A program made the position numbers and the translations under genes. The notes beneath the pieces were generated by a model. It had not been told where the DNA came from and searched no databases. It saw only the letters and a list, made by a program, of their open reading frames with translations. From Silanimonas sp. (GTDB lineage: Bacteria; Pseudomonadota; Gammaproteobacteria; Xanthomonadales; Xanthomonadaceae), in NCBI RefSeq assembly GCF_027530345.1, contig NZ_JAPZQK010000023.1, positions 19,767-83,766 on the forward strand: a stretch of 64,000 bases of DNA, in the 5' to 3' direction. Below, one piece after another: positions 7,587 through 17,951 of this stretch. Every line of letters starts with the position of its first letter. Position 1 is the first letter of the stretch.

Positions 7587-8050
7587 GCGGGCTCTCCAGC
7601 GCGGCGCGCGGTGTCCTGGATGAAGGCGAGCAGGGCGGCCAACCCGTTGCTGCGGGTCGGCGACAGGTGCTTTGCGAGCCCGATCGTCGCGATGTAGTCG
7701 GGCGTCGTGGCGAGGATCTCGGCCGCGCTGCGCCCTGAGTAGACGCGCAGCGCGAGGTGGATCAGCCCGGAGACGATCGAGGAATCGCTGATCGCGTGGA
7801 AGTCGAGCTTGGCGGCATTGCCTTGTGCCACGATCCAGACCTTCGACTGGCAGCCGAGCAGCCGGTGTTCCTCGGTCTTCCATGCCTCGGGCAGTTCAGG
7901 CAGCTTGCGACCGAGGTCGATCAGGTACTGGTAGCGCTCGGTCCAGTCGCCGAAGAAGCCGAACTCTTCGGCAATCGCCGCTTGGGCCTCGGCCGCGGTC
8001 GCCTCCATGGGGAAGGGCGAGATGGGTGGCGTCACGACCGGGGTGTTCAC
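7583..8050 (-). CDS. sufE: SufE family Fe-S sulfur-transfer protein
   Basis: [33 protein letters not shown] and LSPTRSNGL motifs. Confidence 0.92.
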
Positions 8051-9459
8051 GCGCGCTTCCTCGACCAGCGCACGCCCTGCGGCGTGTCCTCGAGCACGAT
8101 GCCGGCAGCGGCGAGTTCATCGCGGATGGCATCGGCGCGAGCGAAATCGCGGGCCTTCTTGGCGGCCGTCCGCTCGGCGACCAGGGCGTCGATGCGCGCG
8201 TCGTCATCGTTGGCCGAACCCTTGCCGAACCAGGCCTCCGGATGCTGCTGGAGCAGGCCCAGCGCGGCACCGGCGCCGAGCAGTTCGGCCTTGGCATCGC
8301 GAGCTTTCACGATGGCCTGCGCCACGGCGGCGTCGCCCGAGGCCTGCAGGAACTCGCGCTGCGCGGCGCGCACTTCGCCCGCGATCCGCGACAGCTCCGC
8401 CAGCGCGGCGGGCGTGTTCAGATCATCGGCGAGCGCGAACTCGACCGCCTCCGGCAACACCGGGGCCGCCTCGACGTCAGCGAGGTCGCGCAGCGTCCCG
8501 TACAGACGATCAAGGGTGTTGATGCTCTGTTCGATCAGGGCCGGAGACCAGTCCAGCGGCTGCCGGTAATGGGCGGAGAGCAGGGCGTAGCGCAGGGCCT
8601 CGGCCGGGTAGTCCTTCAGCAGCTCATGCACGGTGCGGATATTGCCGACCGACTTCGACATCTTGCTGCCGTCAAAGGTGAGCATGCCGTTGTGCAGCCA
8701 CCAACGGGCGAAGGTCGTGCCGCTGGCGCACTGGCTCTGGGCGATCTCGTTCTCGTGGTGAGGGAACTGCAGGTCCACGCCGCCAGCGTGGATGTCGATG
8801 GTGTCGCCGAAGTGCGCGTGGCACATGGCCGAGCACTCGATATGCCAGCCCGGGCGGCCGCGGCCCCAGGGCGAATCCCAGCCCGGGAGTTCCGGGGTGC
8901 TGGGCTTCCAGAGGACGAAATCACCGCCATCGCGCTTGTAGGGGGCCACCTCGACGCGGGCGCCGGCCAGCATTTCATCCGTGCTGCGGCGGGAGAGGGC
9001 GCCGTATTGGGCGTAGGTCGAGACCTGGAAGAGCACGTGGCCGTCGGCGGCGTAGGCGTGCCCCTTCGCGATCAAGCGCTCGATCATCGCGATGATGTCG
9101 GCGATGTGGTGGGTGGCATGCGGCTCGATATCCGGCAGCTTCACGCCGATCGCGCCCATGTCCTCGCGATAGATCGCGGTGAACTTCTCGGTGATGGCCG
9201 TGATCGGCACCTTCTGCTCGATGGCCGACTGGTTGATCTTGTCGTCCACGTCGGTGATGTTCCGGGCGTAGACGACCTTCGGGAAATGGCGCCGCAGCAG
9301 ATCGGCGAGCACGCCGAACACGACCGGTCCCCGGGCGTTCCCGATGTGGGCGTAGTTGTAGACCGTGGGGCCGCAGACGTACATCGTGACGCGGTCCGGA
9401 TGGGCGGGCTGGAAGTCCTCGACCTGTCGGGAAAGGCTGTTGAAGAGACGGATCGCCAC
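8047..9459 (-). CDS. cysS: Cysteine--tRNA ligase
   Basis: [15 protein letters not shown] (HIGH), [10 protein letters not shown] and KMSKS motifs; GTG start at 9459. Confidence 0.97.
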
Positions 9460-9587
9460 GGGGCCTCGGGGCTGACTGAACACGGCCTTGGAGTGTAGCA
9501 ACCGGCCCCTTCGGCTTAACGGAAATCTTAGGCCTCGGTTCAGCCGCTCGGTGCTGGAATTCGGACTGTCCGACACACCCGGAGCCC

Positions 9588-10151
9588 TTGATGATCCTCA
9601 CCCCGCGCCACGCCTTGGTTGTTGCCGTCGCTGTCGCCTCGGGCGCTGCTTCGGCCCAGTACCGCGATGACTACGCGCCGGCCTACGCCTCGGGCCAGGA
9701 GAACGTGTCGTACGCGTATGCGCAGGTCACCCGCGTCGACCCGATCTACGAAACCGTTCGCACCCGCACGCCGGAAGAGGTCTGTGGCGGCGAGGAAATC
9801 CGCGAGGTGCGCCGCTCGAACGGCGGAACCGTGGTGGGCGCGCTTGTCGGCGCCGCCCTCGGCAATACGGTGGGCAGTGGCGATGGCCGCCAGGCGGCGA
9901 CCGTGGCCGGTGCCGTGATCGGTGGCGCGATCGGCCGCAATTCCGACAAGAACAACGAACGGGTCGTCGTCCGTGACGCCGGTTGCCGCGTGGTCGACGT
10001 GGAGCGTGAGCAGCGCCGCGTCGCCTCCTACGACGTCGAGTACGTCCATCAGGGTCAGACCTACATGTCGCGCCTGCCCTACGATCCGGGTGATCGCCTG
10101 CGCGTGCGCGTGGCCGTGACGCCCGTGGACGAGGGCACGGCCTACCGCTGA
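9588..10151 (+). CDS. Glycine-zipper 2TM domain protein (YcfJ-like)
   Basis: Signal peptide; [33 protein letters not shown]; C-terminal YDVEY...[14 protein letters not shown]. Confidence 0.85.
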
Positions 10152-10174
10152 GGCCAGCCTATGCGGTCCATCGG

Positions 10175-10202
10175 AGCGCCCTTCGGGGCGCTTCGTCGTT
10201 TC
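10175..10202 (+). terminator. Intrinsic terminator of the glycine-zipper gene
   Basis: AGCGCCC-TTCG-GGGCGCT hairpin (UUCG tetraloop) followed by TCGTCGTTTT. Confidence 0.7.
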
Positions 10203-10245
10203 AGGGCTTGCGCCCGCACGCCGGCTCTGCGACCCTTCGCCCCCT

Positions 10246-10350
10246 ATGTCCACCTTCCTGCCCGCTTTCGGCGTCCTGACCTCGGCCTACATGGCCGCCG
10301 GGATGACGTCTCGTGCGCGCCGACCGGAATCCCGCCAAGCCGCTGGGTAA
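10246..10350 (+). CDS. Putative arg operon leader peptide, 34 aa: MSTFLPAFGVLTSAYMAAGMTSRARRPESRQAAG
   Basis: Translated by hand (below the ORF-track cutoff). Four Arg codons (CGT, CGC, CGA, CGC) cluster in the last 12 codons, just upstream of the hairpin preceding argF'. Confidence 0.6.
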   Translation: MSTFLPAFGVLTSAYMAAGMTSRARRPESRQAAG

Positions 10351-10413
10351 CCGGTTCGTTTCGTCGTTTTGAAACCACCAACGCCCAGCCTCGAGCTGGG
10401 CGTTGGCGTTTTG
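10342..10413 (+). promoter_or_regulatory. Putative attenuator: antiterminator strand plus terminator hairpin
   Basis: Terminator CCAACGCCCAGC-CTCGA-GCTGGGCGTTGG (10378-10406) plus CGTTTTG; GCTGGGT (10342-10348) can pair with the left arm GCCCAGC (10383-10389). Confidence 0.6.
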
Positions 10414-10454
10414 CGTCCCGTCTTTTCCCAATTGCCGCCTTTGGAGCACCACCG

Positions 10455-11465
10455 ATGAAGCACTTCCTGAACACCCAGGACTGGTCCCGCGCCGAGCTCG
10501 ACGCCGTGCTCGACGAGGCCGCGGCCTTCAAAGCCTCGAAGTTCGGCCAGCAGATGGCCGGCAAGAGCATCGCCCTGGTGTTCTTCAACCCCTCGCTGCG
10601 CACGCGGACCAGCTTCGAGATCGGCGCGACGCAGATGGGCGGCCATGCCGTGGTGCTGGCCCCGGGCAAGGACGCGTGGCCGATCGAGTTCGACCTCGGC
10701 ACGGTGATGGATGGCGACACCGAGGAGCACATCGCCGAAGTAGCGAAGGTGCTGTCGCGCTACGTCGACCTGATCGGCGTGCGCGCCTTCCCGAAGTTCG
10801 TCGACTGGTCGGTGGACCGGCAGGACAAGGTGCTGGCGGGTTTCGCGAAGTCCGCGACGGTGCCGGTGATCAACCTCGAGACCATCACCCATCCCTGCCA
10901 GGAACTGGCCCATGCGCTTGCCCTGCGCGAGCGCTTCGGCAAGGACCTCCGCGGCCGCAAGTACGTGCTGACTTGGACCTACCACCCGAAGGCGCTCAAC
11001 ACGGCCGTCGCGAACTCGGCGCTCACGATCGCCACGCGCCTCGGCATGGACGTGACCCTGCTGTGCCCGAACGAGCAGTACCTGCTGGACGAGCGCTACA
11101 TGGGCTGGGCTCAGCAGAACGTTGCCGAGAGCGGCGGTTCGCTGCAGGTGTCGCATGACATCGATGCGGCCTACCGCGACGCCGACGTCGTCTACGCGAA
11201 GAGCTGGGGCGCACTGCCCTTCTTCGGTAACTGGGCCGACGAGAAGCCCATGCGCGACGAGTACAAGCACTTCATCGTCGACGAACGGAAGATGGCGCTG
11301 ACCCGCGACGGTGGCAAGGGCCTGTTCTCGCACTGCCTGCCGCTGCGCCGCAACGTCAAGGCCACCGACGGCGTGATGGACTCGCCGAACTGCATCGCCA
11401 TCGACGAGGCCGAGAACCGCCTGCACGTGCAGAAGGCCGTGATGGCCCGCCTGCTGCGCGGTTGA
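10455..11465 (+). CDS. argF: N-acetylornithine carbamoyltransferase (ArgF')
   Basis: [48 protein letters not shown] and HCLPLRRN, typical of the Xanthomonas-type AOTCase. Confidence 0.93.
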
Positions 11466-11512
11466 GCCGCCGACCGACACGAACCCCCGTTTTCCTTTCG
11501 AGCATCCGAACC

Positions 11513-12703
11513 ATGTCCAAGAAAATCGTCCTCGCCTTCTCCGGCGGCCTCGACACCAGCTTCTGCGTGCCTTACCTGCAGGAACGCGGCTGGGAAGTGC
11601 ACACCGTGTTCGCCGACACCGGCGGCGTCGACGCCGAGGAAAAGGCGTGGATCGAAGCCCGCGCCCATGAGCTCAAGGTGGCCAGCCACGTCACCGTGGA
11701 CGGTGGCCCGGCCATCTGGGCCGGCTTCGTGAAGCCCTTCGTCTGGGCCGGCGAGCCCTACCAGGGCCAGTACCCGCTGCTGGTCTCCGACCGTTACCTG
11801 ATCGTCGAGGCCGCGCTGAAGCGCTGCGCCGAGCTGGGCACGAAGGCCATCGCGCATGGCTGCACCGGCATGGGCAATGACCAGGTGCGTTTCGACCTCG
11901 CCATCAAGGCGCTGGGCGACTACGAGATCGTGGCGCCGATCCGCGAAATCCAGAAGGAGCACAAGGAGGTTCGCGCCTACGAGCAGGCCTATCTCGAGGC
12001 GCGTGGCTTCGCGGTGCGCGCCAAGCAGAAGAGCTACACGATCAACGAGAACCTGCTCGGCGTGACTATGAGCGGCGGCGAAATCGACCGCTGGGAAGCG
12101 CCGGGCCCCGGTGCGAAGGGCTGGTGCGCGCCGCGCAGCGAGTGGCCTACCGCGCCGCTGGAGCTGACGCTGGGCTTCCAGAGCGGCGAGGCCATCACGC
12201 TCAATGGCGAGGCCCTGCCGGGCCACGTGATCCTCGCCAGGCTCAATGCGGCGCTGGCGCCCTACGGCGTGGGCCGAGGCCTGTACACCGGCGACACGAC
12301 CATCGGCCTCAAGGGCCGGATCATTTACGAAGCGCCGGGCCTGGCCGCACTGCTCACGGCGCATCGCGCGCTGGAGGAGGCCGTGCTGACGAAGAACCAG
12401 AACCGCTTCAAGCCCGAGATCGGCCGCAAGTGGACGGAACTGGTCTACGAGGGCTTCTTCCACGACCCGCTGAAGACCGACGTCGAGGCCTTCCTCGCGT
12501 CCTCGCAGCGAACCGTCAATGGCACCGTCACTCTTCGCACCGAAGGCGGCCGCGTGGACGCGGTGGCCATCCAGTCGCCGCACATCCTCAACGCCAAGGG
12601 TGCCACCTACGCGCAGGCCGCGGACTGGGGCGTGGCCGAGGCCGAGGGCTTCATTCGCCTGTATGGCATGAGCAGCACGCTGTGGGCCGAGGTGAACCGG
12701 TGA
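11513..12703 (+). CDS. argG: Argininosuccinate synthase
   Basis: [24 protein letters not shown] and YTINENLLG motifs. Confidence 0.95.
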
Positions 12704-13797
12704 GCGAGGCCCTCGCCAGCACGCTGAAGCACCTCGAGGCCCTCGTCGGCTTCGACACGCGCAACCCGCCGCGGGCCATCGGCACCGGCGGGATGTTCGA
12801 CTACCTGCAGGCGAACCTGCCGGGCTTCCGCTTCCAGCTGACCGATTTTGGCGCCGGCGCGGTGGCCCTGCTGGCCGTGCGCGGTAACCCGACGCGCGTG
12901 TTCAACGTGCACATGGACACCGTGCCGGACTCCCCGGCGTGGACGGCCAGCCCGCATGTCCTTCGGGTCACGTCGGATCGCGCCATCGGCCTCGGCGCCT
13001 GCGACATCAAGGGCGCCGCGGCCGCCATGCTGACGGCGGCGGCACGGACGACCGGCGACGCGGCCTTCCTGTTCACCACGGACGAGGAGGCGAATGACGC
13101 CCGCTGCATCGCGGGATTCCTCGCGCAGGGCCACGGCTTCACCGAAGCCGTTGTGGCCGAGCCCACGCAGTGCGAGGCCGTGCTCGCGCATCGCGGCATC
13201 GCCTCGGTGCTGATGAAGTTCCAAGGCCAGGCCGGGCACGCTTCGGCGGCGAACGCGCTGAAGCTCTCGGCGCTGCACCAGGCCATCCACTGGGGCGAGT
13301 CGGCGCTGGCCTTCGTCGAGTCGCAGTCGCACCAGCGATTCGGCGGGCTGACCGGGCTGCGCTTCAACATCGGGCGCGTCGAGGGCGGCATCAAGGCCAA
13401 CATGATCGCGCCCAGCGCCGAGGTGCGCTTCGGCTTCCGGCCGCTGCCCTCGATGGACACCTCCCAGCTGCACGCGCACTTCAAGGGCTTGGCGGATCCG
13501 GCCGCGCTGGCGCACTACGAGGCGACGTTCTTCGGACCATCGCTACCGGCGGGCGACGTCGCGCAAGCGGAAGCCAAACGGCTCGCCGCGCGCGATCTCG
13601 CCGACGAACTGGGCCTGCCGATCGGCAACGCCGTCGACTTCTGGACCGAGGCCAGCCTGTTCTCGCAGGCCGGCATGACCGCTTTCGTCTTCGGCCCTGG
13701 CGACATCGCCCAGGCCCACACCGCCGACGAGTGGGTCGCGCTCGACCAACTCGCCTCCTACACCGACCACCTGATCCGACTGTTCTCGCGGCCATGA
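12700..13797 (+). CDS. argE: Acetylornithine/acetylcitrulline deacetylase (M20 family)
   Basis: HMDTVP, GACDIKG, DEE, AEPT and [13 protein letters not shown] motifs; GTGA overlap with argG. Confidence 0.9.
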
Positions 13798-15113
13798 CCG
13801 ACCTCCGCACAACGATTGTTCGCCTCCTGTCGAATATGGCGAGCGCCAAGGAAATCCAGCAGTACCTGAAGCGCTTCAGCTCAGTGGACGCCGCGCGCTT
13901 CGCTGTCGTCAAGGTTGGCGGCGCCATCCTGCGCGACGACATGGAATCGCTGATTTCCTCGCTGTCCTTCCTGCAGCAGGTAGGCCTGACGCCGGTGGTC
14001 ATCCACGGCGCCGGCCCACAGCTGGACGAGGAGATGGCGGCGGCTGGCATCACCAAACTGACCGTCGACGGCTTGCGCGTTACTCCGCCCGAGGTGCTGG
14101 CTGTGGTGCGCCGCGTGCTGGTGCGGGAGAACCTGCGCCTCGTCGACGCCTTGCAGGAAGCCGGCGTCCGCGCGACATCGATCCAGACCGGCGTGTTCGA
14201 GGCCGAGATCGTCGACCGCGAGCGCCTCGGCCTCGTCGGCGACGTGAAGCGCGTCGAGCGCGAGGGCGTCGAGGCGGCGATCCGCGCGAACTCGATCCCG
14301 GTGATCTGTTCCCTGGGTGAGACGAAGGACGGCCAGATCGTCAACGTCAATGCCGACTGGGCGGCGAACGAGCTGGTGAAGTCGCTACAGCCCTACAAGA
14401 TCATCTTCCTCACCGGCACCGGCGGCCTGCTGGACGGGGAGGGCAAGTTGATCGACTCGATCAACCTCAGCACCGACCGCGAACGCCTGATGGCGGCGCC
14501 GTGGCTGACCGGCGGCATGCGGGTGAAGATCGAGCAGATCGCCGACCTGCTGGACGCGTTGCCGCCCTCGTCGTCGGTGTCGATCACCAAGCCCGACGAA
14601 CTCGCCAAGGAGCTGTTCACGCATCGCGGCTCGGGCACGCTCGTGCGTCGTGGTGAAGCCATCCATGTGTTCGAGCGCTGGGACCAGGTGGACCTGCCGC
14701 GCTTGAAACACCTGATCGAGTCCGGCTTCGGCCGCGCGCTCACGCTGGACTACTTCGAAACGACGACGCCGTGGCGCATCTACGTCTCCGCCAACTACCG
14801 CGCCGCGCTGGTGCTCACGGAAGAAAACGGCATCCCGCACCTCGACAAGTTCGCCGTCGCCGACGACGCCAAGGGCGAGGGCCTCGGTCGTGCCGCGTGG
14901 GACGTGATGCGCGCGGAGACGCCGCGACTGTTCTGGCGTTCGCGCACCAGCAATCCCGTCAACGACTTCTACTTCGACCAGTCGGAGGGCGCGCTCAAGG
15001 GCGACCCTTGGACGGTGTTCTGGTACGGGCTCGAGGGCTTCGAGGACATCCGCTTCGCCGTCGAGCACTGCCGCACCCGCCCGGCCACGCTGAAGCTGGG
15101 GGCCGCGGCATGA
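13794..15113 (+). CDS. argB: Acetylglutamate kinase fused to a C-terminal NAT domain (NAGS/K type)
   Basis: [14 protein letters not shown] and NVNAD kinase motifs; C-terminal HLDKFAV...GEGLG...LFWRSR NAT domain. Confidence 0.9.
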
Positions 15114-15712
15114 GCACGTGGAATGCGATACCAACGCTGAAGGGTCAGCACGTGACGCTGGAGCCGCTGTCCCGCGATCACGTGCCGGCGCTGCAGGCGG
15201 CGGTGAAGGATGGCGAACTGTGGACGCTGTGGTACACGGCGATTCCGGACCCCGAGGGCATGCTCGCCTACGTCGACAAAGCCTTGGCACTGCTCGAGAC
15301 CGGAAAGGCCATTCCGTTCGTCGTGCGCGATGCGTCCGGCGCCATCGTCGGCAGCACCCGTTTCGGCGACATCGAAGCAGCGCACCGGCGCGTGCAGATC
15401 GGCTGGACCTGGTACGCGAAGCGCGCCCAGCGCACCGGCCTCAACACGGAAGCCAAGGCCCTGCTGCTGGCCCATGCGTTCGAGGTGATGGGCTGCGGCC
15501 GCGTCGAGTTCTTCACGCACTTCATGAACCATGCCTCCCGGTCGGCGATTGCGCGGCTCGGCGCGAAGGAAGAGGGCGTCCTGCGCAACCACATGCGCAT
15601 GCCGGACGGCAGCTGGCGCGACACCGTCGTGTTCTCGATCATCGACGGCGAATGGCCGGCCGTGCGGGCCCATTTGCGCCACCTGATGGCGCGTCGGGGA
15701 GACGCCGCATGA
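15110..15712 (+). CDS. GNAT N-acetyltransferase (RimJ/RimL-like)
   Basis: [20 protein letters not shown] and [15 protein letters not shown] motifs; overlaps both neighbours by ATGA. Confidence 0.85.
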
Positions 15713-16662
15713 TCCGCTTGGGTCTTGTCGGTGCCCGCGGCCATGTCGGCACCGAGCTGATCAAGCTGCTGGCCTCGCATCCCGGATTCGATATCGCCTT
15801 CGTGTCCTCGCGCGAGCGCGACGGGCAGCGCCTCGCCGACCACGAACCCGCGTACCAGGGCGAGCTGCGCTACACGGCGCTCGACGCGGCGGGCGTGGCG
15901 GCGAGCGGCGTGGATGCCGTGGTGCTCGGCCTGCCGAATGGGTTGGCCGCGCCCTACGTCGCCGCCATCGATTCGATCGCCCCCGGCATGGCCATCGTCG
16001 ACCTGTCGGCGGATTTCCGCTTCGACGCGACGTGGACCTACGGCCTGCCCGAGCGGAACCGCGCAGCGCTCGCTGGTGCGACGCGCATCAGCAATCCCGG
16101 TTGCTACGCGACGGCGATGCAACTGGCCCTGGCGCCGGTTCTCGATCTCGTCGACGGCCCCGCGCAGTGCTTCGGTGTGTCTGGCTACAGCGGTGCCGGC
16201 ACGACGCCGAGCGACAAGAACGATCCCGCGAAGCTGCATGACAACCTGATGCCGTACTCGCTGGTGAACCATGTGCACGAGCGCGAGGTGACTCGCCACC
16301 TCGGCCATCCCGTCGAGTTCATGCCGCATGTGGCGCCGCACTTCCGCGGCATCACCATGACCGTGAACGTGCACCTCAACGACCCGGCGACGCTCGGCGC
16401 GCTCCGCGCCCGCTACGCGACGGCCTACGCCAGCGAGCCGCTGGTCCGGGTGGTCGATGGCGCCCCGTGGGTTTCGCGCATCGCGAATCGCCACGGCGTC
16501 GAAATCGGTGGCTTCGCGCTGTCGGACGACGGTCGGCGCTTGGTCGTGGTCAGCACCCTCGACAACCTGCTGAAGGGCGCCGCCACGCAGGCCCTGCAGA
16601 ACCTCAACCTCGCGTTCGGCCAGGCCGAGACGACGGGCCTCACCGTGGAGTGGGCGGCATGA
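15709..16662 (+). CDS. argC: N-acetyl-gamma-glutamyl-phosphate reductase
   Basis: [34 protein letters not shown] and [11 protein letters not shown] motifs. Confidence 0.95.
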
Positions 16663-17951
16663 GCAACGTCTTGTGGGCGAAGCCCGGCATGGACATCGAC
16701 GCAGACATCCAGCGTTTCCTCGCTGGCGACGACGTCATCCTCGATCGCGAGTTCATCCGCTACGACATCCGCGCGAGCGCCGCGCACGCGGAAGGGCTCG
16801 AGCGCATCGGCATCCTTACCGCTGACGAACGGGTCGCGATCGCCCGCGAGCTGGAGGAGCTCGATGCCGATGTCGCCGCCGGCCGGTTCGTGCTCGATGA
16901 TCGCTTCGAGGACATGCACTCCGCCATCGAAGCCCGACTGATCGAGCGCCTCGGCGACGTGGGCAAGAAGATCCACACCGGCCGCAGCCGCAACGACCAG
17001 GTGCTGGTGGCGACGCGCCTGTGGCTGAAGGACCGTCTCTCACATGCCGCGGCGCTCTGCCATACCGCCGCCGGCGTCGCGCTAGAGCGCGCCGCGAGGG
17101 AGGGCGAACTGCCGCTGCCGGGCTACACCCACTTGCAGCGCGCGATGGTGTCGAGCGCGGCGATGTGGTGGGCCGGTTGGGCCGAAGCCTTCATCGACGA
17201 CGCCGACCGCCTGCGTGGCACGGCACGCTGGATCGATGCGAACCCGCTCGGTTCAGCGGCCGGCTATGGCGTGAACCTCGCGCTCGACCGCGACCACACC
17301 ACGGCCGCGCTCGGCTTCGGCCGCCTGCAGGTCGCCGCCACGTACGCACAGCTCTCGCGCGGCAAGTTCGAACTCGCCGCCTTGGAAGCGCTGGGCTCCG
17401 CGCTGCTCGACCTTCGCCGGCTCGCGTGGGATCTATCGCTGTTCGCCAGCGCGGAATACACGTTCGTGCGCCTTCCGGCGAAGTACACGACGGGCAGCTC
17501 GCTGATGCCAAACAAGCGCAACCCCGATGTCATCGAGCTGATGCGTGGCGTGTATGCCTCCGTCGCCGCGGCCAAGATCGAAGTGGAGCAGCTGCTGTCG
17601 CTGCCTTCCGGCTACCACCGCGACCTGCAGTACTCGAAGGGCGCGATCGTGCATGGCTTCGGCCGTGGCCTCGCGGCACTGGGATTGCTGCCGGACCTGC
17701 TGCGGGCGCTGGAATGGCAGCCGGAGCGAATGCGTGCCGCCATCGAGTCTTCGATGTACGCCACCGATCTTGCCGTTGAACTTTCCGCCGGGGGCATGCC
17801 GTTCCGCGACGCCTACCAGCAGGCCGCGGATCCGAAGCAATGGGCCGAGCGTGATCCGCAGGGCAGCCTCGAGGCGCGGGTGTCGCCGGGTGCTGCGGGC
17901 GATCTCAGGCTGTCCGTTCTCGCCGCCCGCTGGTCGTCGTTGAACCGCTGA
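16659..17951 (+). CDS. argH: Argininosuccinate lyase
   Basis: [20 protein letters not shown] and [12 protein letters not shown] motifs. Confidence 0.95.

What the first reader, a model, noticed from the sequence alone, without database searches (positions are those of the whole stretch)
10246..10413. Candidate arginine-sensing leader peptide and attenuator upstream of the arg operon
Seen: a 34-codon ORF (MSTFLPAFGVLTSAYMAAGMTSRARRPESRQAAG*) with all four Arg codons, including CGA, clustered at 10312-10335. A 12-bp terminator hairpin with a T run follows (10378-10413), 41 nt before the argF' ATG. GCTGGGT at the leader's end (10342-10348) can pair with the terminator's left arm, with a nested GTTTC/GAAAC helix between them. 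The upstream gene has its own UUCG terminator at 10175, so this hairpin belongs to the arg leader. Inference: a ribosome stalled on the Arg codons leaves 10342-10348 free to form the antiterminator, while a ribosome reaching the stop covers it and allows termination. Established: ribosome-mediated attenuation is classic for trp/his/thr/ilv/leu/phe, whereas arg genes are usually controlled by ArgR; I know of no described attenuator for this arg operon. Caveat: the leader has no Shine-Dalgarno sequence, so it may be leaderless or start at ATG 10291 or 10303.
Basis: partly seen in the sequence, partly recalled or inferred. Interest (0 to 1): 0.85.

Follow-up and report, generated by a model that had tools for sequence, protein, structure and literature searches.

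The report
Arginine leader-peptide attenuator before argF'
A short conserved reading frame with three arginine codons, followed by a terminator hairpin that an alternative pairing can block, most likely lets these bacteria raise arginine-synthesis gene expression when charged arginine tRNA runs low; until now this RNA was catalogued only as a small RNA of unknown function (Xoo5).

Summary
Window 10244-10370 matches Rfam RF02242 (Xoo5, "Xanthomonadaceae sRNA") above its gathering score.

In 80 Lysobacteraceae genomes and 99 metagenome contigs the element always lies directly upstream of argF', on the same strand.

- **Coding signal:** the ORF core A-x-G-M-T-S-R-A-R-R is invariant while third codon positions vary (entropy 0.18/0.07/0.72 bits). 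The last Arg codon is the rare CGA in 76 of 77.
- **Leaderless start:** a conserved -35/extended -10 promoter sits 4-10 nt before an ATG that is in frame with the Arg codons in 75 of 75 cases. 5'RACE in X. oryzae puts the RNA start 2 nt before that AUG. A more distant group uses a Shine-Dalgarno sequence before the same start.
- **RNA switch:** the terminator covaries. Segment 2 (GCUGGGU or GCCGGGU) covaries three ways with both terminator arms, and the stop codon is within 8 nt of the start of segment 2 in the genome set.

No arginine response has been measured. Xanthomonas RNA-seq shows the main 3' end 7 nt before the terminator stem, not at the U-run, and a published leader deletion had no growth phenotype.

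Verdict: a new member of the classical leader-peptide attenuators, confidence about 0.75.

The parts
10173..10194 (+). 9-bp hairpin with UUCG loop after the upstream ycfJ-like lipoprotein gene (9588-10151). Probably that gene's terminator or 3' stabiliser; it separates that gene from the leader promoter.
   Evidence: Read. The gene was identified (PRK11280). The terminator scan did not list the hairpin because its T-run is weak.
10208..10213 (+). -35 element TTGCGC of the leader promoter
   Evidence: TTG[CT] lies at this position relative to the -10 in 75 of 75 scorable relatives.
10228..10236 (+). Extended -10 element TGcGACCCT (TG 10228-29, hexamer GACCCT 10231-36), 9 nt before the leader ATG
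   Evidence: The motif TGn[G/C]Ann[A/C/T]T is followed by an ATG within 4-10 nt in 75 of 81 sequences. The simple sigma-70 scan found nothing here, so this rests on conservation only.
10244..10244 (+). Predicted transcription start, 2 nt before the AUG, which makes the leader mRNA leaderless
   Evidence: Position 1 of the Rfam Xoo5 model aligns here. That position is the 5'RACE end CTATGCAAGC... in X. oryzae. Inferred by homology, not measured in this organism.
10246..10350 (+). Leader ORF, 34 codons plus TAA
   Evidence: The start is in frame with the Arg core in 75 of 75 relatives, across six different lengths that are all multiples of 3.
10279..10326 (+). Conserved peptide core T-S-A-Y-M-A-A-G-M-T-S-R-A-R-R-P
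   Evidence: Entropy by codon position is 0.175/0.071/0.719 bits, and A-x-G-M-T-S-R-A-R-R is invariant in 77 distinct leaders. The flanking T-S-A-[RY]-M-A-[AS] is also kept in metagenome relatives.
10312..10323 (+). Regulatory codons CGT-GCG-CGC-CGA (Arg-Ala-Arg-Arg)
   Evidence: The codons are CGY, CGY and CGA in 77, 77 and 76 of 77 leaders. CGA makes up only 1.5% of Arg codons in 80 argF' genes.
10324..10334 (+). Segment 1 (CCGGAAUCCCG), the 5' half of the 1:2 helix. A ribosome stalled at the Arg codons would cover it.
   Evidence: 87.4% of cells pair, against 22-61% for slid controls. The helix is -11.9 kcal/mol in the window.
10342..10354 (+). Segment 2 (GCUGGGUAACCGG). It pairs either with segment 1 or with the left terminator arm, and it contains the stop codon.
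10358..10375 (+). Nested hairpin GUUUC(G)...(U)GAAAC inside the antiterminator loop
   Evidence: Relatives have a hairpin at this position with a different sequence.
10378..10413 (+). Intrinsic terminator: segment 3 at 10378-89, loop 10390-94, segment 4 at 10395-10406, then CGUUUUG
   Evidence: The stem is -23.8 kcal/mol. 95.4% of cells pair, 6 pairs show compensatory change, and 0 of 500 shuffles reach the observed value. RNAalifold predicts it independently.
10443..10457 (+). Shine-Dalgarno GGAG and ATG of argF'
10455..17951 (+). The controlled operon: argF' (N-acetylornithine carbamoyltransferase), argG, argE, argB (kinase/synthase type), a GNAT acetyltransferase, argC, argH
   Evidence: NCBIfam equivalog matches.

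Best explanation
This is a ribosome-mediated (leader-peptide) transcription attenuator that most likely senses charged tRNA-Arg and controls the argF'-argG-argE-argB-GNAT-argC-argH operon.

**Transcription and translation start.** Transcription starts about 2 nt before the AUG at 10246, so a ribosome can load on the 5'-terminal AUG as soon as the RNA emerges and follow the polymerase closely.

**When Arg-tRNA is scarce.** The ribosome stalls on CGY-GCN-CGY-CGA (10312-10323). All three Arg codons are read by the inosine-containing tRNA-Arg(ICG). The stalled ribosome covers segment 1 (10324-10334). Segment 2 (10342-10354) is therefore free when segment 3 (10378-10389) emerges. Segments 2 and 3 pair to form the antiterminator, the terminator cannot form, and the polymerase reads into argF'.

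**When Arg-tRNA is plentiful.** The ribosome runs on to the stop codon (10348-50), which lies inside segment 2. It masks segment 2, the 3:4 terminator forms, and transcription stops near 10410.

**Without a ribosome.** The full leader folds into 1:2 plus 3:4, which is the terminating form.

**What is shown.** Conservation, the coding signature, the promoter/start geometry, and the pairing potential and covariation of the three helices are shown here. The 5' end and the existence of a short leader RNA are shown in X. oryzae.

**What is inferred.** Translation of the ORF, stalling, termination at the U-run, and any response to arginine.
For: 1. **Position.** The element lies directly upstream of argF', on the same strand, in 80 of 80 genomes from at least 11 genera. 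It does so in 99 of the 100 metagenome contigs that carry the other leader features and enough downstream sequence.
2. **Coding.** A-x-G-M-T-S-R-A-R-R is invariant while third codon positions vary freely (entropy 0.175/0.071/0.719 bits).
3. **Codon choice.** The three Arg codons are CGY, CGY and CGA. CGA is used in 76 of 77 leaders but makes up 1.5% of Arg codons in argF'.
4. **Start.** A conserved -35 and extended -10 is followed by an ATG within 4-10 nt in 75 of 81 sequences. That ATG is in frame with the Arg core in 75 of 75, across six lengths that are all multiples of 3. 5'RACE clones in X. oryzae begin CTATG. A more distant group has GGAG or GGAA 5-8 nt before the same start instead.
5. 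**Terminator.** 95.4% of cells pair, 69 cells show compensatory change, and 0 of 500 shuffles reach this. RNAalifold finds it unaided.
6. **Antiterminator.** 97.2% of cells pair, against 26-51% when slid. In the metagenome set, 42 sequences have C in segment 2 with G in the left arm, 37 have U with A, 9 have a U.G wobble, and only 3 of 91 are incompatible.
7. **Stop codon.** It lies within 8 nt of the start of segment 2 in the genome set, in three configurations: GCU GGG UAA, UAG-CUGGGU, and UGA-N(2-4)-GCCGG.
8. **Occlusion folding of 80 leaders.** With a ribosome at CGA, the left arm pairs upstream with probability 0.86 and the antiterminator is -16 to -30 kcal/mol. With a ribosome at the stop codon the probability is 0.41 and the energy -0 to -11 kcal/mol.
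9. **Energies in the window.** 1:2 is -11.9, 2:3 is -19.2 and 3:4 is -23.8 kcal/mol. The full-leader minimum-energy fold is 1:2 plus the terminator.
10. **Short RNAs.** Leader RNAs are seen on Northern blots in X. oryzae and do not depend on Hfq.
11. **No operator.** No ARG-box operator occurs in the window.
Against: - **No functional data.** No experiment links the element to arginine.
- **3' ends in RNA-seq.** In stranded RNA-seq of a Xanthomonas about 99% identical to L080, the prominent sense 3' end is at TSS+126, 7 nt before the terminator stem. That matches the cloned Xoo5 3' ends at about +121 to +124 (counted from the mapped 5' end). It is not at the U-run; only 4 chimeric reads end there. 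Depth over argF' (130-190) exceeds depth over the leader (50-120), and RNA also enters from the upstream gene.
- **Northern sizes.** The bands of about 130 and 100 nt are shorter than the roughly 160 nt expected for a terminated transcript.
- **Deletion mutant.** The published delta-sRNA-Xoo5 mutant grew normally in minimal medium. From its primers, the deletion keeps the -35 and rebuilds the -10. It removes the ORF and segments 1 and 2 but keeps the terminator. So in Xanthomonas the operon must have another input or a leaky terminator.
- **Antiterminator covariation.** It is weak within the genome set alone (5 cells, 66 of 500 shuffles), and the events are phylogenetically clustered.
- **Equilibrium folding without a ribosome.** It often predicts the antiterminator too (mean probability 0.65), so the switch depends on kinetics.
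- **Weak U-run.** The window's own U-run is weak.
- **CGA invariance.** The invariant A of CGA and G of TCG could instead reflect a small never-varying hairpin.
Confidence: 0.75

Rival explanations
1. It is only what Rfam calls it: an independent trans-acting small RNA (Xoo5). On this view its reading frame and its position before argF' are incidental.
For: - The region matches Rfam RF02242.
- Discrete RNAs of about 130 and 100 nt appear on Northern blots, and the 5' end is mapped.
- A defined 3' end at TSS+126, before the terminator, appears in RNA-seq.
- One metagenome contig (L162) carries a complete leader plus terminator with no argF' within 856 nt.
- Attenuator-derived RNAs can act in trans, as rnTrpL does in Sinorhizobium (PMC6614838, listed).
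Against: - The period-3 substitution pattern and the in-frame start in 75 of 75 cases show selection on translation.
- Linkage to argF' holds in 179 of 180 informative loci.
- The terminator/antiterminator/stop-codon geometry has no role in a pure sRNA.
- The RNA is Hfq-independent and its deletion has no phenotype.

A secondary trans role is not excluded.
Confidence: 0.05
2. The conserved 16-residue nascent peptide itself is the sensor or an essential co-sensor. Inside the ribosome exit tunnel it arrests or slows the ribosome, possibly in response to free arginine or a pathway intermediate, as TnaC, SpeFL and the fungal arginine attenuator peptide do. The RNA switch then reads out ribosome position.
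For: - Conservation extends well beyond the Arg codons: T-S-A-[RY]-M-A-[AS]-G-M-T-S-R-A-R-R-P with free synonymous change. Classical leader peptides conserve little beyond the regulatory codons (own knowledge).
- The Rfam 5' hairpin that could explain nucleotide conservation is not kept outside Xanthomonas (mismatches marked; sequences).
- R-A-R is a '+x+' motif of the kind that slows peptide-bond formation (R-L-R is discussed in PMC8632094).
- A Pro codon follows the Arg cluster in 68 of 77 leaders.
Against: - Codon starvation alone explains the geometry.
- Use of the rare CGA, and of codons read by one tRNA, points to tRNA sensing.
- A stall at R-R-P induced by high arginine would antiterminate, which is the wrong sign for a biosynthetic operon.
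- The peptide matches no Pfam or NCBIfam family.
- Part of the conservation (CCG GAA) is segment 1 RNA.
Confidence: 0.12
3. The hairpin is a constitutive or protein-controlled terminator, or simply an RNA processing/stability element. On this view arginine control, if any, comes from a DNA-binding regulator or a second promoter, and the ORF is conserved for another reason, for example as a small protein.
For: - The delta-Xoo5 mutant has no growth phenotype in minimal medium.
- The RNA-seq 3' end lies before the terminator, depth rises again downstream of it, and there is read-through from the upstream gene.
- A conserved AAAGTTTCAACCGCAAG element lies between the terminator and argF' in the Xanthomonas clade.
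Against: - It does not explain the three-way covariation of segment 2 with both terminator arms.
- It does not explain the stop codon tracking segment 2, or an Arg cluster placed exactly one ribosome footprint upstream of segment 1.
- No ARG box is present.
- The window's clade has only 41-54 nt between terminator and argF' and lacks the extra element.
Confidence: 0.06

Closest known systems
Classical leader-peptide attenuators of enterobacterial amino-acid operons (trpL, hisL, leuL, thrL, ilvL, pheL)
   Same: Both have a short ORF with clustered cognate codons, and a 1:2 / 2:3 / 3:4 set of alternative helices with an intrinsic terminator. The stop codon lies in or next to segment 2. A rare or starvation-sensitive codon is used (CUA in leuL, own knowledge; CGA here). 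The full-length fold is the terminating one.
   Different: The cognate amino acid is arginine. I found no described bacterial leader-peptide attenuator of a biosynthetic operon for arginine. The mRNA is leaderless rather than led by a Shine-Dalgarno sequence. There are only three regulatory codons. The peptide is conserved over 16 residues. No experimental test exists.
Rfam RF02242, sRNA-Xoo5 of Xanthomonas oryzae (Liang et al. 2011, PMC3039613)
   Same: It is the same RNA: 59.4 bits, model positions 1-124 aligned to window 10244-10370. The published 5' end and the cloned sequence are the leader ORF itself.
   Different: It was described as a small non-coding RNA of unknown function. The paper does not mention arginine, argF or a leader peptide. 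The Rfam model stops before the terminator.
Leaderless leader-peptide attenuators: polycysteine short ORFs of mycobacteria (bioRxiv 10.1101/834739) and the 14 leaderless leader peptides of Deinococcus deserti (PMC4007540)
   Same: The leader peptide is translated from a 5'-terminal AUG, and cognate-codon clusters lie upstream of biosynthesis or tRNA-synthetase genes.
   Different: The phylum and the amino acid differ. Here the same ORF is Shine-Dalgarno-led in a sister group. The mycobacterial Cys elements are described in the abstract only as attenuators of operonic gene expression; I did not read the mechanism.
speF leader ORF (orf34/SpeFL) of Salmonella and E. coli
   Same: Consecutive Arg codons in a leader ORF make ribosome position sensitive to arginine supply (PMC6386406, abstract). 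SpeFL also has a conserved peptide containing R-R (own knowledge).
   Different: It controls polyamine synthesis, not arginine synthesis. It acts through Rho and mRNA conformation and through ornithine sensing by the nascent chain. No sequence similarity was found.
Fungal arginine attenuator peptide (uORF of arg-2/CPA1)
   Same: An upstream ORF lowers expression of an arginine-pathway gene when arginine is high (own knowledge).
   Different: It is eukaryotic and translational. It senses free arginine through the nascent peptide and stalls at the stop codon. It has no Arg-codon cluster and no terminator.
Sinorhizobium trp attenuator products rnTrpL and peTrpL (PMC6614838, PMC7298713)
   Same: The terminated leader RNA accumulates as a small RNA. 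The precedent shows that the sRNA and attenuator labels are compatible.
   Different: Trans functions are demonstrated there and are untested here.

Membership tests
Ribosome-mediated (leader-peptide) transcription attenuators | Short ORF upstream of, and co-oriented with, an amino-acid biosynthetic operon | tested here: met
   Leader ORF at 10246-10350 before argF'. The arrangement is the same in 80 genomes and 99 metagenome contigs.
Ribosome-mediated (leader-peptide) transcription attenuators | Cluster of codons for the cognate amino acid, conserved in relatives | tested here: met
   R-A-R-R is present in 81 of 81 genome-derived sequences. In 77 distinct leaders the codons are CGY, CGY and CGA (76 of 77).
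Ribosome-mediated (leader-peptide) transcription attenuators | Intrinsic terminator between the leader ORF and the first structural gene | tested here: met
   The U-run is weak in the window's clade.
Ribosome-mediated (leader-peptide) transcription attenuators | Mutually exclusive antiterminator that uses the terminator's 5' arm | tested here: met
   97.2% of cells pair. Three-way covariation is seen in the metagenome set. The antiterminator is -19.2 against -23.8 kcal/mol for the terminator in the window.
Ribosome-mediated (leader-peptide) transcription attenuators | Geometry in which a ribosome stalled at the regulatory codons frees segment 2 and a ribosome at the stop codon masks it | tested here: met
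   CGA is immediately followed by segment 1. The stop codon lies within 8 nt of the start of segment 2 in the genome set. Occlusion folding of 80 leaders agrees.
Ribosome-mediated (leader-peptide) transcription attenuators | The leader ORF is translated | tested here: inconclusive
   There is strong indirect support from the period-3 conservation and the in-frame start. No ribosome profiling or peptide data were available.
Ribosome-mediated (leader-peptide) transcription attenuators | Transcripts end at the terminator in vivo | tested here: inconclusive
   In Xanthomonas RNA-seq the main 3' end is at TSS+126, before the stem. Only 4 chimeric reads end in the U-run. Standard libraries under-sample RNAs of about 160 nt.
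Ribosome-mediated (leader-peptide) transcription attenuators | Read-through responds to supply of the cognate amino acid or charged tRNA | not testable with these tools
   No runs with and without arginine could be identified.
Rfam RF02242 (Xoo5) | Covariance-model score above the family's gathering threshold | tested here: met
   59.4 bits against 50, full-length match.
Trans-acting Hfq-type sRNA | Hfq dependence, or target regulation in trans | not tested
   Not tested here. The literature reports Xoo5 levels unchanged in delta-hfq, and no targets were sought.
Leaderless mRNAs | Transcription start at, or within a few nucleotides of, the start codon | tested here: inconclusive
   This is shown by 5'RACE only in X. 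oryzae. In the window it is inferred from the conserved -10 lying 9 nt before the ATG.
Ligand-sensing arrest peptides (TnaC, SpeFL, fungal AAP) | Conserved nascent peptide that stalls the ribosome in response to a small molecule | not testable with these tools
   Peptide conservation is met. Stalling cannot be tested. No family match was found.
ArgR-repressed arg promoters | ARG box operator(s) overlapping the promoter | tested here: not met
   No match to TNTGAATWWWWATTCANW with up to 3 mismatches anywhere in the 64-kb window. Whether an argR gene is present in the genome was not tested.

The most novel reading that the evidence does not exclude
The 16-residue conserved nascent peptide (T-S-A-R/Y-M-A-A/S-G-M-T-S-R-A-R-R-P) acts inside the ribosome tunnel. 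It would serve either as an arginine- or intermediate-binding arrest peptide, or as a built-in brake that makes three Arg codons sufficient. The element would then be a hybrid of codon-starvation sensing and nascent-chain sensing. Its processed 5' fragment (Xoo5, ending at TSS+126) might additionally act in trans.
Probability: 0.12. Interest if true: 0.85.

Novelty: new member of a known kind. Interest (0 to 1): 0.6.

Why it matters
- **A gap in the textbook picture.** Arginine biosynthesis is the standard example of repressor (ArgR) control. The leader-peptide attenuators usually listed cover Trp, His, Leu, Thr, Ile/Val and Phe. A conserved arginine attenuator across Lysobacteraceae would add arginine to that list. 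The family includes the crop pathogens Xanthomonas, as well as Stenotrophomonas and Lysobacter.
- **How these bacteria regulate arg genes.** It would explain how they control an arg operon that has no ARG box.
- **Reassigning an Rfam family.** It would turn an Rfam "sRNA" family into a cis-regulatory leader.
- **A comparison for translation biology.** The same leader ORF is leaderless in one clade and Shine-Dalgarno-led in another. That gives a natural comparison for asking how initiation mode affects transcription-translation coupling.
- **A route to testing peptide effects.** The unusually conserved peptide offers a tractable test of whether nascent-chain effects tune classical attenuators.

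All of these points can be tested directly with reporter fusions.

Tried and rejected
- **RNA evidence for the window's own organism.** Only lake and freshwater metagenome DNA runs hold the sequence.
- **Xanthomonas RNA runs kept as assembled contigs.** Their depth is flat and uninformative.
- **Raw RNA-seq of a Xanthomonas.** It was informative about 3' ends, but the conditions are unknown and the libraries are not suited to short RNAs, so it neither confirms nor refutes termination.
- **Start at the internal ATGs (10291, 10303).** Rejected. The conserved promoter, or a Shine-Dalgarno sequence in the distant group, always precedes the first ATG 51-72 nt upstream, and it is always in frame.
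- **The Rfam 5' hairpin as the cause of nucleotide conservation.** Its pairs are mismatched outside Xanthomonas.
- **The same leader before other genes.** The core motif is unique in the window. In metagenomes, 9 non-argF' hits were chance matches without promoter, segment 2 or terminator, and 1 was an orphan copy.
- **ARG box search.** No hits.
- **Family scans of the peptide.** No Pfam or NCBIfam hits. Public annotations call it only "hypothetical protein".
- **Literature searches for a prior description of an arginine attenuator in this group.** Eight searches found none. Subscription-only papers were not searchable.
- **Presence of ArgR in the genome.** Not resolved.
Full report
**1. What is in the window**

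- A 34-codon ORF runs from ATG 10246 to TAA 10348-50. Its Arg codons are at 10312-14, 10318-20, 10321-23 (CGA) and 10333-35.
- GCTGGGT lies at 10342-48 and overlaps the stop codon.
- A small GTTTC/GAAAC helix lies at 10358-75.
- A 12-bp G+C-rich hairpin at 10378-10406 is followed by CGTTTTG, and the terminator scan finds it independently.
- GGAG at 10443-46 and the argF' ATG at 10455 follow.

The downstream genes are argF' (N-acetylornithine carbamoyltransferase, 602 bits to the equivalog model), argG, argE, argB, a GNAT acetyltransferase, argC and argH. The upstream gene is a ycfJ-like glycine-zipper lipoprotein, followed by a 9-bp hairpin with a UUCG loop at 10173-94. A 34-codon ORF alone is not evidence in DNA this G+C-rich: an unrelated 434-codon ORF crosses the same region in another frame.

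**2. The RNA is already catalogued, under another label**

Window 10244-10370 matches Rfam RF02242, "Xanthomonadaceae sRNA Xoo5", full length, at 59.4 bits (gathering score 50, E 1.4e-11). Liang et al. 2011 found sRNA-Xoo5 in X. oryzae by cDNA cloning, 5'RACE and Northern blots (about 130 and 100 nt). Its level is unchanged in a delta-hfq mutant.

The paper never mentions arginine, argF or a leader. Its 5'RACE clones read CTATGCAAGCAAAC...GCTGGGTAA. So the RNA begins 2 nt before the AUG of the homologous ORF, and the "sRNA" is the leader ORF itself.

Eight full-text searches found no description of an arginine attenuator in this group. Neither Pfam nor NCBIfam has a model for the peptide. Where the peptide is annotated at all, it is called "hypothetical protein".

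**3. Comparative evidence that the ORF is translated**

A protein-guided scan returned 80 species-level genomes from Silanimonas, Luteimonas, Lysobacter, Pseudoxanthomonas, Stenotrophomonas, Thermomonas, Xanthomonas and others. The window is closest to Silanimonas lenta (ArgF' 95% identical).
- All 80, plus the window, carry ATGACnTCnCGnGCnCGnCGA upstream of argF'.
- In an alignment of 77 distinct leaders, entropy by codon position over 11 codons is 0.175, 0.071 and 0.719 bits. A-x-G-M-T-S-R-A-R-R is invariant, while Thr and Ala use all four codons.
- The Arg codons are CGY, CGY and CGA. CGA is used in 76 of 77 leaders, although it accounts for only 22 of 1452 Arg codons in the 80 argF' genes. 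By standard decoding rules all three codons are read by tRNA-Arg(ICG) (own knowledge).
- RNAalifold also finds a small never-varying hairpin, UCGCG...CG(Y)CGA, that could equally fix the third positions of TCG and CGA. Codon rarity is therefore suggestive, not proven.

**4. Start of translation**

- A conserved -35 (TTGCGC) and an extended -10 (TGnGAnnAT) precede the first ATG.
- In a search that did not assume a reading frame, 75 of 81 sequences have this -10 followed by an ATG within 4-10 nt.
- All 75 of these ATGs are in frame with the Arg core, although the distance takes six values (51, 54, 57, 63, 66, 72), all multiples of three.
- In the window these elements are -35 at 10208-13, TG at 10228-29, -10 GACCCT at 10231-36, and ATG at 10246.
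- Together with the X. oryzae 5'RACE result, this indicates a leaderless mRNA.

A metagenome scan with the core motif added 99 argF'-linked leaders. In the more distant ones (ArgF' about 70-79% identical) the promoter differs. There, a 5'UTR of about 25 nt carries GGAG or GGAA 5-8 nt before the same start codon. The ORF is thus kept while the mode of initiation changes.

**5. The RNA switch**

- **Terminator.** It is present in essentially all leaders. 95.4% of cells pair, six pairs show compensatory change, and no shuffle reaches the observed covariation.
- **Antiterminator.** Segment 2 (alignment columns 57-63) can pair with the left terminator arm in 97.2% of cells, against 26-51% when the partner is slid. 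Within the genome set this helix is conserved rather than covarying (5 compensatory cells, 66 of 500 shuffles).
- **Covariation in the metagenome set.** Counting the third base of segment 2 against its partner in the left arm: 42 leaders have C with G (36 of them the exact triple GCCGGGU / ACCCGGC / GCCGGGU), 37 have U with A (GCUGGGU / (A|G)CCCAGC / GCUGGG(U|C)), 9 have a U.G wobble, and only 3 of 91 are incompatible. Both GCU GGG and GCC GGG encode Ala-Gly, so the peptide's C-terminus is a by-product of the RNA element.
- **Stop codon.** It tracks segment 2 in three configurations: GCU GGG UAA, UAG-CUGGGU, and UGA-N(2-4)-GCCGG. It lies within 8 nt of the start of segment 2 in the genome set.
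- **Helix 1:2.** It is kept in 87.4% of cells, against 22-61% for slid controls.

**6. Folding with ribosome occlusion**

For 80 leaders I folded the nascent RNA up to the terminator loop.
- With a ribosome's A site on CGA (13 nt masked downstream), the left arm pairs upstream with mean probability 0.86, and the antiterminator is worth -16 to -30 kcal/mol.
- With the A site on the stop codon, the probability is 0.41 and the remaining structures are worth only -0 to -11 kcal/mol.
- Without a ribosome the probability is 0.65.

In the window, 1:2 is -11.9, 2:3 is -19.2 and 3:4 is -23.8 kcal/mol. The full-leader minimum-energy structure is 1:2, the nested hairpin and the terminator. As in trp, the antiterminator can only win kinetically, by forming before segment 4 is made.

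**7. In-vivo data, and where they do not fit neatly**

Stranded raw RNA-seq of a Xanthomonas about 99% identical to L080 (X. vasicola) shows sense transcription across the leader into argF'.
- The sharp feature is a 3' end at L080 1357, which is TSS+126. It lies 2 nt after the nested hairpin and 7 nt before the terminator stem. In two of three runs, 18 and 26 molecules end there.
- This agrees with the cloned Xoo5 3' ends at about +121 to +124, counted from the mapped 5' end, and with the band of about 130 nt. A transcript ending at the U-run would be about 160 nt.
- Only four chimeric reads end in the U-run.
- Depth recovers gradually downstream to a level above that of the leader, and RNA also enters from the upstream gene.

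The published delta-sRNA-Xoo5 mutant grew normally in minimal medium. From its primers I infer the junction ...GCGTGCGA-GGATCC-GACGTTGAAGACCCAGCC. This keeps the -35 and rebuilds the -10 (GAGGAT). It deletes the ORF and segments 1 and 2 but keeps the terminator. Under the model this should super-attenuate. The lack of an arginine growth defect therefore implies a second input or a leaky terminator in Xanthomonas.

A conserved element, AAAGTTTCAACCGCAAG, lies between the terminator and argF' in Xanthomonas, Stenotrophomonas and Pseudoxanthomonas. It may be that second input. The window's clade lacks it and has only 41-54 nt there. These data show that Xoo5 is a processed or trimmed leader fragment. 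They neither demonstrate nor exclude regulated termination.

**8. Interpretation**

The best explanation is a classical ribosome-mediated attenuator that senses charged tRNA-Arg, with a leaderless start. Rivals fare as follows.
- **Purely trans-acting sRNA.** This does not explain the coding signature or the geometry. A secondary trans role remains possible.
- **Nascent-peptide sensing.** This is the most interesting open alternative, because 16 residues are conserved (T-S-A-[RY]-M-A-[AS]-G-M-T-S-R-A-R-R-P), far more than the Arg codons require. However, a stall at R-R-P induced by arginine would have the wrong regulatory sign.
- **ArgR control.** No E. coli-type ARG box exists in the window. 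Whether the genome encodes ArgR was not testable.

**9. Novelty and score**

The mechanism is a known kind. The amino acid (arginine), the taxon-wide distribution, the leaderless/Shine-Dalgarno-led dichotomy and the reassignment of an Rfam sRNA family appear to be new.

I rate it a new member of a known kind, interest 0.6, and confidence 0.75 in the mechanism. The missing piece is any measurement of an arginine response.

Noticed in passing
L080:1336-1360 (homologous to window ~10355-10377): In two of three raw RNA-seq runs of a Xanthomonas, many sense-strand molecules have their 3' end exactly at L080 1357 (TSS+126). That is 2 nt after the nested hairpin and 7 nt before the terminator stem. 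It matches the cloned 3' ends of sRNA-Xoo5 (about +121 to +124), so Xoo5 looks like a processed or trimmed leader fragment rather than a transcript ended at the U-run.
   Followed up: partly
L080:1404-1425 and homologous positions in L016, L018, L032, L035, L058, L067, L071 and others: A conserved element (G/A)AAAGTTTCA(A/C)C(C/T)GCAAG lies 15-25 nt after the terminator U-run in Xanthomonas, Stenotrophomonas and Pseudoxanthomonas. It sits within a 100-115 nt spacer that the window's clade lacks. RNA-seq depth climbs from about this point to above the leader's level. It may be a second promoter, a processing site or a regulator site, and it could explain why the Xoo5 deletion has no phenotype.
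   Followed up: partly
L162:806-967 (minus strand): A 1079-nt metagenome contig carries a complete leader: promoter, ORF MTKPRASADILTSARMAAGMTSRARRPEPHSRAG, segment 2 and terminator. It is followed by a convergent type II secretion pseudopilin-like ORF (288-731, +) instead of argF'. This is either an orphan copy or a chimeric assembly.
   Followed up: partly
L111, L104, L163, L122, L184, L117, L153 (metagenome loci), about 60-85 nt upstream of the Arg core: In a more distant group (ArgF' 70-79% identical to the window's) the same leader ORF has a different promoter (TTGCAT-17 nt-CATGAT). A 5'UTR of about 25 nt carries GGAG or GGAA 5-8 nt before the start, which is sometimes GTG. The ORF is therefore Shine-Dalgarno-led there and leaderless in Lysobacteraceae.
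   Followed up: partly
window 10309-10323 (alignment A1 columns 22-36): RNAalifold finds a never-varying mini-hairpin, UCGCG-loop-CG(Y)CGA, that contains the Arg codons. It offers an alternative reason for the invariant third positions of TCG and CGA. CGA is also followed by CCG in 68 of 77 leaders.
   Followed up: partly
L080:1195-1260: Sense RNA-seq depth is as high upstream of the mapped leader TSS as over the leader, which means read-through from the ycfJ-like gene; Xanthomonas has no hairpin there. In one run (X69), 3' ends pile up at 1254 and 1259, inside the first codons of the leader ORF.
   Followed up: no
window 10161-11465: An ORF of 434 codons in the argF' frame extends 98 codons upstream of the real argF' start, with no stop codon, across the terminator and the leader. 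It is a G+C-content artefact that could mislead gene callers.
   Followed up: yes
window 14771-15712: A GNAT-type acetyltransferase ORF sits between argB and argC inside the operon. This is the arrangement once noted as puzzling in Xanthomonas (PMC1382215). argB itself is of the long kinase/synthase type (PRK04531).
   Followed up: no
window 8047-9576 (minus strand): cysS (cysteine-tRNA ligase) lies upstream on the minus strand. It is unrelated to the arg leader.
   Followed up: no
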